Assembly: GCF_006345805.1 (NCBI RefSeq)
Contig: NW_021835642.1
Span: forward strand, 1 to 33,606
Reading direction: 5' to 3'
Length of the DNA: 33,606 nt
DNA from: Octopus sinensis
Taxonomy: Eukaryota
Shown: in pieces, positions 5,088 to 32,368 of the stretch
Position numbering within the stretch: position 1 is the stretch's first letter
Layout: each line of letters begins with the position of its first letter
The notes under the pieces: generated by a model
What the model was told of the DNA's origin: nothing
Databases searched by the model: none
The model's input: only the letters and a program-made list of their open reading frames with translations
Position numbers and translations under genes: made by a program

Positions 5088-5144
5088 CCACTGAAGATCT
5101 ATGGATAATTGTTTAATTGTTAATGGTGAAACTTCGAAGTATGG
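5088..5144 (+). ncRNA. Type I hammerhead ribozyme motif (PLE-type)
   Basis: cca-CTGAAGA-tctatggataatt..aattgttaatggt-GAAAC-ttcgaa-GTA-tgg. Stem I is cca/tgg, stem II is imperfect, stem III is the palindrome acttcgaagt. Predicted cleavage after A5141. Confidence 0.7.
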
Positions 5145-5419
5145 AATTGACTGGTCATTTTATATCTTTTCATAGTGTCTTGTACGAGTACATCGAACGC
5201 GACGTTAAATGAGAACGCATTTTTCGTAGTTAGTCGATTTGACGGCTACTTTCAGCATGTCAGGAAACCACTTAGTGGCTTTCCTCTTACGTTATATATT
5301 TGAATATAATTTTTTATCCTCAGTAGTTCTCTCTCTCTCTCTCTCTCTCTCTCTGTATATATATATATATATATATATATATATATGTATCAAATGAAAT
5401 AAAAAGCAGAACACAAAGG

Positions 5420-5527
5420 ATGTCGCGGTACACAGGTTTCGAGCTTTATAAAACAACTTATTCTTACATCAATGTAATAATAGATAATAGATAATAGATA
5501 GTGTAAAGCCCTCTTCAGCCACATGCA
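5420..5527 (-). ncRNA. Type I hammerhead ribozyme motif with long stem II loop
   Basis: Minus strand: tgtgg-CTGAAGA-gggcttta...taaagctc-GAAAC-ctgt-GTA-ccgcg. Stem II is 8 bp; stem I has G-U pairs. Confidence 0.7.
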
Positions 5528-6400
5528 ATTGCTACACCAAAGACTTGTGTTACATTATGAAAGGTCTGGGAAAGAACATTTGGTATAATTTATAATGGTA
5601 GGTAAATTGAGTTTCACTGAGAAAGTATGTTTGTAAATCTTCATAATCAAACAGGTGTACAGGGTATTATTGGACTCCAAAAATCCGTCCATACCGTTTT
5701 CTCACTCAGTATATATATATCAGTAGGACACACACAACACATAATAGTGAAGTATCCTGTCGTTGCCGCGCAATTTTTCACAATGGAATGCCTTTGCGGG
5801 CTTTCGGAATAGCATGCCCACGCAAGCTGAATTTTTTCCATTCTAACGAGGCTTTTCAAATTTTCCTTTTTCACTACAACTTGCAAATGGTAGGGAGAAG
5901 CTTTTTATGAAGAAAAAGATTTAGCTGTTGTTTCTTAGAACATCCCACGACCACCTGGTACCTTCCTCGTCTCTTTATTTACCTGTCCTGTATTGGTATT
6001 TTTCAATATTTTTCTCCCCATAAACACATTTTATGGAACGATGATGCGGAACTAACCATTTTGTTTAGCCCAGGGATGGTCTATCACTGGGATGTAAACA
6101 ACACCAGAAAATTTATAATCTAAATCATTAACAACCACCAGCACCAAGCGAGTGTGTGTGTGTGTGTGTGTGTGTAAGAAAAACATTTACTAACAGAAAA
6201 AGATGCTTTCAAATAAATTATTTCACACACCTTTTATAAATCACTCTTTCGCCGTTATGAAATTCCCAATGCATAATCATACACACACACAGAGCCATAC
6301 ACACTCGGTTTTGACGATATACATTTCTAGAGTGAGAGGGTGTGGTAAATATATATATAAATATATGCAATGAGAAAAACGTAAGGGAAAGAGATAGACG

Positions 6401-6491
6401 AAGAGAGAGAGAGAGAGAGAGAGAGAGAGAGAGAGAGAAGAGAGAGAGAGCGAGAGAGAGAGAGAGAGAGAGAGAGAGAGAGAGAGAGAGA
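6401..6491. repeat. (GA)n microsatellite
   Basis: Directly visible. Confidence 0.97.
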
Positions 6492-6961
6492 GGATACAGA
6501 TTTTGAAATTCCAAAATAAGCTGAAAATTTTCAAATTTAATATATTGATGCACTTTTTCTAGTACGATTTTGGAATCCATTTATTGCATACAGATTATAT
6601 ATATATATATAATATATATATATATATATATATATGTATATATATATATATAGGGAGAGAGAGAGAGAGAGAAAGAGAGAGAGAGGGATTTGTCAATCTA
6701 AGACCTATTTCTCTTATTAGCAAATTATATTTCATAATTATTTTTAAGGACGACCTTCTCATTGGAAGGCAGATGTCGAAAATCAAATTCGTTTTTGCCG
6801 AGGACGCACAGTTCCTGGGCCTTTCGGAGGTGGTGGGAGAACACAAATATATAACACACATATATAACCACATACACTCACATCCATACACACATACACA
6901 CATACACACATATATATATATATATATAGACACACACACACACATGCATATATTTATCATA

Positions 6962-7341
6962 GATGCAGACGTGGCTGTGTGGTAAGTAGATTGCATACCA
7001 ACCGCATGGTTCCGGGTTCAGTCCCACTGCGTGGCACCTTGGGCAAGTGTCTCCTACTATAGCCTAGGGTTGACCAAAGCGTTGAGAGAAACGGGAAGAA
7101 GCCCATCGTATATATATGAATATGTATGTATGTGTGTATTTTTGTGCGTCTGTGTTTGTCCCCACACTATCGCTTGACAACCGATGTTGGTTTGTTTACG
7201 TCCACGTAACCTTAGCGGTTCGGCAAAAGAGACGGTAGAATAAGTACTAGGCTTACAAAGAATAAGTCCTGGGGTCGATTTGTTTAACTAAAGGTGGTGC
7301 TCCAGCATGGCCGCAGTCAAAATGACTGAAATAAGTAAAAG
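6962..7341 (+). mobile_element. SINE family A
   Basis: Colinear with 4238-4668, with a short internal deletion. Confidence 0.92.
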
Positions 7342-30267: not shown

Positions 30268-30801
30268 GTGTACAGGACATCACCAACGAGTGAAAATTAT
30301 GTAAACACACGAGAAACAAGTATGGGACAAAATACCAAAAGAAGATAACTCGCTCATCAGTTGTCAACCGTGATATTACTCCTTGTTTTGTGCTTTTAAC
30401 AACAAGATAGAAAAACTTCATAAGACAGCAGCATCCAGAAATGTTTAAAATACATACTTTATGGCGAGTTAGGGCTTCGAACGAACAAACAATAACAGAG
30501 TGGACGGACGAATTAAACAATCGACGAAGACAGACATTAAGGGTCGTTAGGCCAAGACGAATTGTAATGTGTAACGCATGGGAGAAATTTTTAAAGGAAA
30601 TAAAATAAATAGAAGAGAAGAAAATAGTAGAAGAGAAAGTAATGTTGGGAAGCGAGAGTAATGACGTCCAGCCCGATGTCCTGCACTTATTGCGTATGCT
30701 TTAGGTATTATGTTCTGTACTTAATGTGTATATTTTTGGTATTTTGTCCTCTATACCTCGTGTGTTCACGTATTTTTCACCTGTTGGTGGCGTCCTGTAC
30801 T
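30268..30801. mobile_element. Element with ~70 bp terminal inverted repeats (GTACAGGAC...GTCCTGTAC) and permuted HHR-like remnant
   Basis: 30269-30340 (gtacaggacatcaccaac.agtgaaaa...acacacgag...ggacaaaataccaaaa) is the reverse complement of 30734-30800. The minus strand of 30349-30393 reads AAAAC-aagga-GTA-N16-CTGATGA. Confidence 0.75.
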
Positions 30802-30826
30802 TAAGGTGTATTATATATATATATAT

Positions 30827-31162
30827 AAAGGGTAAAGGCCCCCTTCGGTCATGAATGACCATGGGATTGCACCTAGAAAGTTACCCTCCTAGACACAAGT
30901 CCGGGCAAGGTTGTTTATGGAAGACCAGCAGTTGCCCATGCTTACCAGCCTCCCCTCTCCACGCCACCAGTGTTATCCAAGGGAAAGACAAAGGACGATA
31001 CAGCTTGGCACCAGTGACGTCGCAACTCATTTCTACAGCTGAGTGAACTGGAGCAACGTGAAGTAAAGTGTCTTGCTCAAGAACACAACACGCAGCCCGG
31101 TCGGATTCGAGCTCACAACCTCACGATCGTAAGCTCGACGCTCTAACCACTGAGCCATGCGC
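30827..31162 (-). mobile_element. SINE with family B head and a different 3' tail, inserted in (TA)n
   Basis: Head ggcgcatggctcagtggttagagcgtcgagcttacgatcgtgaggttgtgagctcgaatcc. 31025-31090 matches 4075-4142; the remainder is unrelated and ends ctttacccttta. Confidence 0.85.
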
Positions 31163-31569
31163 CATATATATATATTATATATATAATATATATATATATA
31201 TATATAATATATATAATAATTATATATATATTATATATATATATATATATATTATATAATATATAATATATAATATATTGTATATATAATATATATATAT
31301 ATTAATATATATATATATATATAAATAATATATATATATATATATAATATATAATTTTCTAGATGGTGTAATTTAATTATTTTGAATTGATAAAAGGTGT
31401 TTTTTTTCTAATATTTTATATATATTGTATTGCGTGAAATTTGATTTAGTATTTCTAAATTGAGATCTTTTTCCTTGTAAGTTTGGATTTATTCCATCAA
31501 TAATAATTATATATATATATATATAATATATATATTAATATATATATATATATATATATATTATATTAA

Positions 31570-31756
31570 AAATAATATGTGACAATTATTCGGTAGCCAA
31601 GAGATGGTGTTGTGGATTTCCACCTTGGCATCCGAAACTCAGAGTTTTATCTTGGCTACCGAATAATGGTAACATATTAATTTACAGATAAATTTCCTCT
31701 ATTTACATAATATTGAGGTCCATTTCTTTCTCTTGTTATCTTACTGTTTTTACCAA
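31570..31756. mobile_element. Second copy of the 700-959 fold-back family, opposite orientation, shorter inverted arm
   Basis: taatatgtgacaattattcggtagccaaga (31573-31602) pairs with tcttggctaccgaataatggtaacatatta (31650-31679). The tail is the reverse complement of ~725-780. Confidence 0.88.
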
Positions 31757-32275
31757 TATATATATATAATAAGTGATAGTCTTTTTCTCCAAATTGAATA
31801 AATTTTAGATTTAGATTTTTTCCTTTATTCTAACGTGTCAAAGTACTTGGAACTTATAGACCAACTGTTGTGTTGATGTGCATAGGGTTTGTAAGGTCTC
31901 TGCACTCTCTGTGAATGTTATTGTGACCATTTGACATTGACCTAGTTCTCCTAACGCTGAATCTGTTCATCAAATTGTAGTAATTGGCATTTAGTTGTGA
32001 CAATGCTGTCTTCCACATAAATTCCTTATATGGAGCTATGGCATCCCATTTACCCCATTTCTATGATTAGAAAATCTTTATTGTCTCCTCTCATTTGTTC
32101 TTCCCTCTCAGAACCTTACAGTAGTCTGGATCAACCGAATCTTAGTCAGTCAGTTAATGGGCTCCACTACCTCAAATGTTCTTAAAATTTAAATCCACAT
32201 CTTTGTCTATATATCTACCTTCTCTATAATGTTGCCACTTGATATGAAAATGTTTGTATTATAGGAAAACCTCTA

Positions 32276-32368
32276 TAATTGGCTGATGAGTACTCAGCAT
32301 TTTAAAACTGTTGTAATACTTACAACATTTAATAAAATGATGTAGTACGAAACGATCGTACCAAATTA
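32276..32368 (+). ncRNA. Type I hammerhead ribozyme motif, best-preserved copy
   Basis: taattgg-CTGATGA-gtact..catttta..tgttgtaa-tac-ttacaaca..taaaatg..agtac-GAAAC-gatc-GTA-ccaaatta. All core nucleotides are present. Predicted cleavage after A32360. Confidence 0.85.

What the first reader, a model, noticed from the sequence alone, without database searches (positions are those of the whole stretch)
5088..32368. Unusually dense set of minimal hammerhead ribozyme elements from several unrelated families
Seen: at least nine type I HHR motifs in 33.6 kb (5088+, 5420-, 10552-, 21364-, 21903-, 22215+, 26443-, 29651+, 32276+). Their stems differ but the CTGANGA/GAAAC/GTH core recurs (damaged in two copies), and stem III is tiny and mostly palindromic (ACGT, ACGATCGT, ACTTCGAAGT). 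None has an intact RT/GIY-YIG ORF attached. Known: such minimal HHRs mark Penelope-like element termini and non-autonomous retrozymes, and can cleave as dimers. Inference: this genome holds a large, probably under-annotated population of non-coding ribozyme retroelements.
Basis: partly seen in the sequence, partly recalled or inferred. Interest (0 to 1): 0.75.

Follow-up and report, generated by a model that had tools for sequence, protein, structure and literature searches.

The report
Penelope hammerheads plus a rearranged ribozyme
This likely octopus DNA holds nine hammerhead-type RNA motifs that are likely dead end-pieces of a known kind of jumping gene (Penelope-like elements), plus an overlooked tenth motif with the hammerhead's parts in a rearranged order, which would, if it cuts, extend to animal genomes a ribozyme form described from environmental sequence data.

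Summary
The nine motifs are real: 8 of 9 pass a type I descriptor, against 0.03 per shuffle. Only two (g, h) are truly minimal. The other seven resemble published Hydra-clade Penelope-like (PLE) hammerheads but have a 30-71 nt stem II domain. Seven of nine end within 200 nt of (TA)n, e/f form a head-to-head palindrome, and family i is highly repeated. None lies in a head-to-tail tandem, so 'retrozyme' fails; no PLE ORF was found. The scan noted such PLE stubs before in other genomes: a known kind.

New: a tenth motif at 611-538 (minus) has the blocks in the non-circular order S-G-C. It has intact cores, three stems, a 3-nt linker and a bracketing helix; 0 of 300 shuffles reach its score. Eckert 2023 found this form only in environmental data. 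By eye, five published Naiad PLE ends, a clade reported to lack canonical hammerheads, are clean C-S-G forms, and three cephalopod ones are S-G-C with a weak stem II. Cleavage, and covariation within this motif's own family, are untested.

The parts
538..611 (-). Candidate type-SGC (non-circularly permuted) hammerhead: triplet GTC 606-604 (predicted cut after 604); stem I 603-599 with 560-564 (5 Watson-Crick pairs); linker TTT 598-596; stem II 595-590 with 546-551 (6 pairs, 2 G.U, A552.C589 next to the core); GAAA 588-585; stem III 585-582 with 605-608 (4 pairs, 2 more after a mismatch); CTGAAGA 559-553; bracketing helix 575-569 with 544-538 (7 pairs)
   Evidence: compared with Eckert 2023 sections 13-15
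430..973 (-). Repeat element carrying the SGC motif: hairpin 759-973 whose right arm ends at AT-rich simple repeat, left arm running on through the motif to about 435; family unknown
31569..31757 (+). Second copy of the hairpin part of the 430-973 element (89-94% alike), without the SGC motif; very high summed contig depth
   Evidence: depth 0.48-1.5 million in X1 bins 31560-31774
5088..5144 (+). HHR a, type I, Hydra-like (T.T beside the core, stem III ACTT/AAGT), 30-nt stem II domain, 3-bp stem I
5424..5523 (-). HHR b, type I, 8-bp stem II base, 71-nt stem II domain; 3' end meets (TA)n 44 nt after the cut site
10554..10627 (-). HHR c, damaged (2-bp stem I, non-palindromic stem III), core letters like i; (TA)n about 110 nt downstream
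21364..21433 (-). HHR d, core CTGAAAA, stem III ACCA/TGGT as in Hydra-1_Obim; sits at the tip of inverted repeat 21289-21499 with a one-sided tail
21902..21989 (-). HHR e, one base lost from the core; left arm of head-to-head palindrome 21855-22336, with a longer 3' tail to (TA)n at about 21773
22214..22302 (+). HHR f, intact core, T-TGC...GCA-T stem II base as in Hydra HHRs; right arm of the palindrome; (TA)n 42 nt after the cut site
26445..26486 (-). HHR g, true min-HHR (ACGT, extra base after the core); head-to-head with a damaged partner at 26594-26643 (+)
29651..29686 (+). HHR h, true min-HHR, stem II damaged
32160..32506 (+). Element i, about 345 bp, non-coding, highly repeated; HHR 32279-32364 with intact core and 59-nt stem II domain that folds as a long hairpin (z -3.0); ends at (TA)n

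Best explanation
The nine listed motifs are type I hammerhead sequences at the 3' ends of short non-coding repeats that are likely 5'-truncated or non-autonomous Penelope-like (PLE) insertions, and the tenth motif (611-538, minus) has the hammerhead blocks in the non-circular order S-G-C and is likely a rearranged hammerhead of a similar retroelement end. Mechanism (inferred): an autonomous PLE elsewhere in the genome, likely Hydra-clade for a-f and i and a canonical clade for g and h, nicks (TA)n DNA with its GIY-YIG endonuclease and reverse-transcribes element RNA from near its 3' end. Synthesis usually stops early and often adds an inverted 5'-truncated copy, which gives the head-to-head pairs (e/f, g/g'), the hairpin around d and the one-sided tails. 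In active elements the ribozyme would cut tandem or read-through transcripts, with stem III formed between two copies through the palindrome. Most copies here are old and at least four (c, d, e, h) are likely inactive. In the tenth motif stems I-III would form as pseudoknots, held by the 3-nt S-to-G linker and a helix bracketing the CUGANGA block. Shown: motifs, stems, positions, repeat nature of family i. Inferred: PLE origin, clade, cleavage, role.
For: Motifs far above chance. (TA)4+ within 200 nt downstream of the cut site in 7 of 9, against 29% of background positions (binomial p 0.003; 6 of 8 with e/f merged, p 0.009) and 2 of 9 upstream. Hydra PLEs insert in (TA)n, carry the HHR near the 3' end, and Penelope-13_HM has an inverted 5'-truncated copy with HHRs on both strands. 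By my count 14 of 26 Hydra rows have the T.T flank seen in a, e, f; d shares ACCA/TGGT with octopus Hydra-1_Obim. Opposite-strand min-HHR pairs 100-700 bp apart are published. On 31560-32840, summed depth steps from 13,675 to 258,657 at 32162 (X1) and stays at 0.2-0.9 million to 32505, while an exact-match contig beside it has depth 30; strand-switch joints link 32158-32358 to 32390-32427, and loose TATA ends lie at 32401 and 32506. SGC motif: best score in the window, 0 of 300 shuffles in any block order, 0 of 200 with relaxed cores, null maximum 13.5 against 16.5; an S block this good occurs at 4 of 49,102 positions; 5-bp stem I, 3-nt linker and fourth helix match the published type. Naiad consensus ends show the same cyclic order with different stem letters (by eye).
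Against: No PLE ORF or protein motif in the window and no autonomous partner seen, so clade and even PLE origin rest on anatomy. Three of the window's type I core or tail motifs plus two others (five 11-12-nt strings) and two SGC strings had 0 hits in the Craig supplement (line breaks can hide hits). Loop II is 3-10 nt in all 26 Hydra rows but the stem II domain is 30-71 nt here. g is 4 kb from any downstream (TA)n, a is 215 nt. Only i folds better than shuffles; the other eight folded stretches have z between -1.6 and +1.6. Summed depth is not a copy number, and only one of eight insertions was laid. For the SGC motif: one copy only, found after looking; the nested ViennaRNA ensemble gives its four helices at most 0.02 (pseudoknots are not modelled); the fourth helix alone is matched by 7.6% of random pairs and 17% of linker shuffles; stem II has 2 G.U pairs and an A.C beside the core. 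The cephalopod Naiad ends have only 0-2 pairs in stem II.
Confidence: 0.72

Rival explanations
1. The elements are non-LTR retrozymes: units transcribed from tandems, cut by the hammerheads, closed into 150-400 nt circles and reinserted; the window holds solo monomers.
For: Element i is about 345 bp, non-coding and highly repeated. Solo retrozyme monomers are dispersed in Xenopus and retrozymes derive from PLE ends. One contig in X1 goes back 121 nt inside element i.
Against: No hammerhead lies in a head-to-tail unit in the window. Pairs are inverted, not direct. Helix sizes are not those of canonical retrozyme HHRs. Ends are polar to (TA)n.
Confidence: 0.12
2. The palindromic elements (d, e/f, g/g', 759-973) are MITEs or foldback DNA transposons that captured a hammerhead relic and spread it passively.
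For: Long inverted repeats flank or contain these motifs; TA-rich flanks also suit Tc1/mariner targets (established knowledge).
Against: Arms are unequal, with a tail on one side only; e and i run about 100 nt past the end of f. Strand-switch joints fall at varied places in family i, unlike fixed transposon ends. b, c, h, i have no inverted partner in the window.
Confidence: 0.1
3. The S-G-C motif is not a selected structure: it arose by a local duplication of the 3' half of an ordinary dimer-type hammerhead, or by chance in a weak inverted repeat, and never cleaved.
For: The S block is preceded by a decayed look-alike of the G block, and both stem III strands are the same ACGT palindrome. The nested minimum-energy fold is a different hairpin. 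Single copy, no covariation in its own family.
Against: 0 of 300 and 0 of 200 shuffles reach it. Linker length and bracketing helix were not in the descriptor yet match the published type. Unrelated Naiad ends show the same cyclic order with compensating letters, for example stem I TCTTA/TAAGA against GCTTA/TAAGC in two Nippostrongylus families (by eye).
Confidence: 0.25

Closest known systems
Hammerheads of Hydra-clade Penelope-like elements, incl. octopus Hydra-1_Obim and Penelope-13_HM (Craig et al. 2021, PMC8557442, File S1/S2)
   Same: Type I order, 3-5 bp near-palindromic stem III, T.T flank and TGC...GCA stem II base (a, e, f), position near the 3' end, (TA)n targets, inverted 5'-truncated partner with two opposite HHRs.
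   Different: Stem II domain 30-71 nt here against loop 2 of 3-10 nt in all 26 published rows; no ORF attached; no sequence homology to a published Hydra end was shown.
[quoted passage not shown]
   Same: g and h: no helix III beyond ACGT, extra base after the core, G-C closing pair; opposite-strand pairs a few hundred bases apart.
   Different: Seven of nine motifs are not minimal; density here (6 strict motifs in 33.6 kb) is far above whole-genome counts given there (about 9,000 in Xenopus tropicalis), though one selected window cannot be scaled up.
Type-SGC / CSG non-circularly permuted hammerheads (Eckert et al. 2023, PMC10085705)
   Same: Motif 611-538: S-G-C order, intact CUGANGA, GAAA and GUC, 5-bp stem I, 3-nt linker from stem I to stem II, helix joining the other sides of stems I and II.
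   Different: Published SGC and CSG examples come from metatranscriptomes or metagenomes, none from genomes of known organisms; this one sits in an animal genomic repeat. Covariation and cleavage untested here.
Naiad PLE 3' ends flagged HHR_core / HHR_half_core (Craig et al. 2021)
   Same: By eye, Parc, Nbra-2, Nbra-3, Hpol and Smim ends are full C-S-G hammerheads, four of them with a bracketing helix; Ovul, Obim and Esco ends are S-G-C with full stems I and III. Same cyclic order as the window motif; cephalopod Naiads also target (TA)n.
   Different: The paper reports these as lacking canonical HHRs and does not describe a permutation in the passages read. The window element shows no homology to them that I could detect, and has a full stem II where the cephalopod consensus ends do not.
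Non-LTR retrozymes (Cervera and De la Pena 2020, PMC7229834; Li et al. 2026, 10.64898/2026.07.22.740005)
   Same: Short non-coding type I HHR-bearing repeats of likely PLE origin.
   Different: No tandem units, non-canonical helices, no circles shown.

Membership tests
min-HHR of metazoan PLEs | Type I order with CUGANGA, GAAA, NUH cores and stems I and II | tested here: met
   6 strict, 8 relaxed, c only with 2-bp stem I
min-HHR of metazoan PLEs | No helix III beyond the palindromic core, extra base between 9 and 10.1, G10.1-C11.1 | tested here: met
   Met by g and h only; the other seven are not members of this form
min-HHR of metazoan PLEs | Lies in the pLTR of an RT + GIY-YIG element | not testable with these tools
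   No genome held; no PLE ORF in the window
Hydra-clade PLE hammerhead | 3-5 bp near-palindromic stem III, often T.T beside the core | tested here: met
   a, d, e, f, i clearly; b, c with one change each
Hydra-clade PLE hammerhead | Near the element's 3' end, inserted at (TA)n | tested here: met
   6 of the 7 Hydra-like motifs within 200 nt, a at 215 nt; background 29%; loose TATA ends at 32401 and 32506
Hydra-clade PLE hammerhead | Short loop II (3-10 nt in published rows) | tested here: not met
   30-71 nt stem II domains: works like a Hydra HHR, filed as a variant, not as a member
Hydra-clade PLE | ORF with RWK, DKT motifs and C-terminal GIY-YIG lacking CCHH; RT phylogeny | not testable with these tools
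   No ORF linked to these ends
Non-LTR retrozyme | Head-to-tail 150-450 bp repeats with an HHR in each unit | tested here: not met
   Self-BLAST of the whole window and TRF on 19500-33606 show none
Non-LTR retrozyme | Expressed as small circular RNA | not testable with these tools
   Only assembled contigs were on offer
Type-SGC hammerhead | Blocks in order S-G-C with all core bases intact | tested here: met
Type-SGC hammerhead | Stems I, II and III can pair | tested here: met
   5, 6 (or 4 in the other register) and 4 pairs; stem II is G.U-rich with A.C beside the core
Type-SGC hammerhead | About 3-nt linker from stem I to stem II, and a helix joining their other sides | tested here: met
   TTT linker; 7-pair helix 575-569/544-538, by itself weak (7.6% of random pairs)
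Type-SGC hammerhead | Covariation of the stems among homologues | not testable with these tools
   No second copy obtained; cross-family support by eye only
Type-SGC hammerhead | Self-cleavage at the predicted site | not testable with these tools
   Needs a bench assay
Naiad PLE (for the 430-973 element) | Homology to a Naiad 3' end or link to an N-terminal GIY-YIG + RT ORF | tested here: inconclusive
   Two 11-nt strings gave 0 hits in the Craig supplement; no ORF homologue

The most novel reading that the evidence does not exclude
Animal Penelope-like retroelements carry non-circularly permuted, pseudoknotted hammerhead ribozymes at their 3' ends. The motif at 611-538 is an octopod type-SGC example, and the Naiad clade, reported to lack canonical hammerheads, has C-S-G or S-G-C forms that standard descriptors cannot see. 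Dimer-type PLE hammerheads, whose stem III forms between two copies, would offer a route from circular to non-circular permutation.
Probability: 0.55. Interest if true: 0.78.

Novelty: new variant of a known kind. Interest (0 to 1): 0.62.

Why it matters
The nine listed motifs alone add one more PLE-rich genome to a known pattern, with a long-loop variant that short descriptors and Rfam miss. The permuted motif matters more. Non-circular permutations of a natural RNA were first described in 2023, from environmental sequence, with no example in a known organism's genome except one weak bacterial candidate. Finding them in retroelement ends of animals would give them a known host and a biological setting. 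It would also revise the statement that Naiads thrive without hammerheads, which was used to suggest that hammerheads merely parasitise PLEs. Both claims can be tested with a short transcription assay and a genome scan.

Tried and rejected
No genome held, so no genome-wide scan. Rfam: the window scan is swamped by microsatellite-driven miRNA hits; local scans of d, g and the SGC motif gave no hammerhead. Pfam on 150 of 183 frames: 10 weak hits, only zf-RVT at 27582-27830 meaningful, a LINE piece. DNA patterns: i/f core in metagenomes 0 hits; 17 viral hits to a loose pattern, none with both stems of 3 or more pairs, rejected as chance; 1 metagenome hit to the SGC pattern lies in bacterial-type coding DNA with no flank similarity, rejected. 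Protein searches with the frame over the SGC motif found nothing. Idea that 31775-32160 is the coding end of an autonomous partner of i: all six frames hold 9-15 stops and at most 2 per frame fall on a listed variant (76 variants were not shown), rejected. Idea that the 588-559 motif is type II: stem I then has one pair; replaced by the S-G-C reading. Expression: no RNA holder listed; two runs guessed to be RNA have contigs over the stretch, not used as evidence. Naiad ends that showed no clear motif by eye: Dst-3, CGi, Mgal, Tama, Omin, Adux, Skow-1; the Dst-4 end was not displayed. Literature searches for a permuted hammerhead in PLEs or animal genomes: searches found none; for cephalopod hammerheads searches gave only Craig 2021 and a twister paper. 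The library lacks most subscription journals.
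Full report
Setting. The window is 37.6% G+C, 27% simple repeat, with many SINE-like copies. A LINE fragment at 27582-27830 (weak zf-RVT) matches P0001 at 67%; the named eukaryotic relatives of P0001 are from Argonauta hians and Octopus sinensis, and one more is a metagenome record labelled Herbaspirillum. An octopod source is therefore likely, not proven. No genome is held.

Observation. All nine motifs are present. A type I descriptor finds 6 with strict cores and 8 with the two damaged cores allowed, against means of 0.007 and 0.027 in 150 local dinucleotide shuffles; c needs a 2-bp stem I. 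A scored fuzzy scan ranks a, b, d, f, g, h, i at scores that none of 25 shuffles reach, and c at 0.04 expected; e, with its deletion, is outside that scan. e, f and i are one family, e/f one palindrome, g has a damaged inverted partner, and a further g-like relic lacking GAAAC lies at 11670 minus. No PLE protein was found.

What the nine are. g and h fit the min-HHR of Cervera and De la Pena 2014 (PMC4209133, parts 1-2 of 4 read), who also describe opposite-strand pairs 100-700 bp apart. The other seven fit the Hydra-clade table of Craig et al. 2021 (PMC8557442; passages, section 11 and supplement parts 1, 2, 24, 25, 52, 53 of 59 read): longer near-palindromic stem III, T.T beside the core in 14 of 26 rows by my count and in a, e, f here, a place near the 3' end, (TA)n targets, and in Penelope-13_HM an inverted 5'-truncated copy with a hammerhead on each strand. 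An octopus member, Hydra-1_Obim, shares d's stem III. The difference is size: loop 2 is 3-10 nt in all 26 rows, whereas the stem II domain here is 30-71 nt; in i it folds as a long hairpin (z -3.0; the other eight stretches folded were not significant). Long loops have a precedent in two spikemoss PLEs in the same table.

Polarity and repetition. (TA)4+ lies within 200 nt downstream of the cut site in 7 of 9 motifs against 29% background, and upstream in 2 of 9. Laying four contig sets on 31560-32840 shows element i as 32160-32506: summed depth rises about 19-fold at 32162 in X1 (5-fold in X3) and stays at 0.2-0.9 million, while an exact-match contig nearby has depth 30-37. The tool warns that this is no copy number; it shows a highly repeated family. 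Five strand-switch joints link 32158-32358 to 32390-32427, and loose TATA ends appear at 32401 and 32506, the places where f and e/i end. [quoted passage not shown] 2024, PMC11167929, parts 1-2 of 4 read, where hammerhead cleavage was not needed for insertion in vitro). The direction of the joints is my inference. The upstream 31775-32160 is repeated but non-coding. Curated O. vulgaris annotation gives PLEs 6.83% of the genome (PMC13282606; part 1 of 3, passages and one supplement row seen), so dense stubs are expected. Retrozymes are defined by tandem units (PMC7229834, passages; bioRxiv 10.64898/2026.07.22.740005, parts 1-3 of 5, supplements not seen); none occurs here.

The tenth motif. Scanning all six block orders gave, as the best hit of the window, an S-G-C arrangement on the minus strand at 608-546 (score 16.5; 0 of 300 shuffles in any order). 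With one core mismatch allowed, 0 of 200 shuffles reach it and no second permuted motif appears. Pairing is listed: stem I 5 Watson-Crick pairs, TTT linker, stem II 6 pairs, stem III 4 pairs, and a 7-pair helix bracketing the CUGAAGA block. Eckert et al. 2023 (PMC10085705; sections 5, 7, 13, 14, 15, 17 and part 1 of 18 read, supplements not read) describe type SGC with a 5-pair stem I, a linker of typically three nucleotides and such a helix, and state that none of their RNAs came from genomes of known organisms except one weak bacterial GCS candidate; they searched RefSeq 85. Against: one copy, recognised after inspection; the fourth helix alone is common (7.6% of random pairs); the nested ensemble prefers another hairpin (helix probabilities at most 0.02); stem II is weak.

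Outside support, read by eye from Craig's Naiad consensus file and not computed. Of 15 Naiad 3' ends displayed, five are complete C-S-G hammerheads: Parc, Nbra-2, Nbra-3, Hpol, Smim. Stem I differs among them (TCTTA/TAAGA and GCTTA/TAAGC in the two Nippostrongylus families; CTTCA/TGAAG in Hpol), the S-to-G linker is a few bases in four, and a helix brackets the C block in four. Three cephalopod ends (Ovul, Obim, Esco) are S-G-C with 6-pair stem I and 5-pair stem III but 0-2 pairs in stem II. Seven showed nothing clear; the set was picked mostly for the paper's half-core flag, so it is not a random sample. C-S-G and S-G-C are rotations of one another. The paper reports no canonical hammerheads in Naiads and flags these ends only as cores or half cores. 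Searches, and passages of PMC13159263 and PMC13725137, showed no report of this; Lunse et al. 2017 was seen only as a reference. Earlier scan notes hold ordinary PLE stubs from other genomes and nothing on permuted forms.

Verdict. The finding as written is real and belongs to a known kind, with a long-loop variant and without support for retrozymes. The window also holds a probable non-circularly permuted hammerhead, which with the Naiad ends points to an undescribed variant class in animal retroelements. Nothing here shows cleavage. Interest 0.62; new variant of a known kind.

Noticed in passing
window 11600-11700 (-): g-like relic: CTGAAGA and stem II start followed directly by the g-family tail, the GAAAC part missing.
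   Followed up: partly
window 30270-30800: Element with terminal inverted repeats (30273-30340 / 30797-30734), TA flanks, and on the minus strand a decayed GAAAC-like block about 110 nt upstream of CTGATGA; possibly another permuted hammerhead relic, not significant. A similar end begins at 33340-33606.
   Followed up: partly
window 11045-11075 (-), 9900-9940 (+), 22510-22550 (-): Heavily decayed hammerhead-like cores seen by eye; none passed the scans.
   Followed up: partly
window 22395-22425: 29-nt match (86%) to the stretch just upstream of HHR b, next to (TA)n, without the ribozyme.
   Followed up: no
window 25950-27030: Divergent tandem array of about 120-200 bp units without hammerheads, interrupted by the g/g' palindrome, which itself holds a 60-bp SINE-like piece.
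   Followed up: partly
window 27200-28035 (+): Broken 3' part of a LINE ORF with zf-RVT; relatives named from Argonauta and Octopus. One relative is a metagenome record labelled Herbaspirillum, likely host carry-over.
   Followed up: yes
window 11020-11600 (+): Frameshifted stretch that by eye resembles the C-terminal region of an RTE-type LINE (recalled pattern, no Pfam hit).
   Followed up: no
window 4240-4650, 6960-7330, 8766-9246, 19794-20230, 32880-33235 and others: Many copies of a two-part SINE-like repeat with a TA/TG microsatellite in its middle.
   Followed up: no
window 610-625 (-): Just upstream of the S block lies a decayed look-alike of the G block, which suggests that the permuted motif arose by duplication of a dimer-type hammerhead half.
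   Followed up: no
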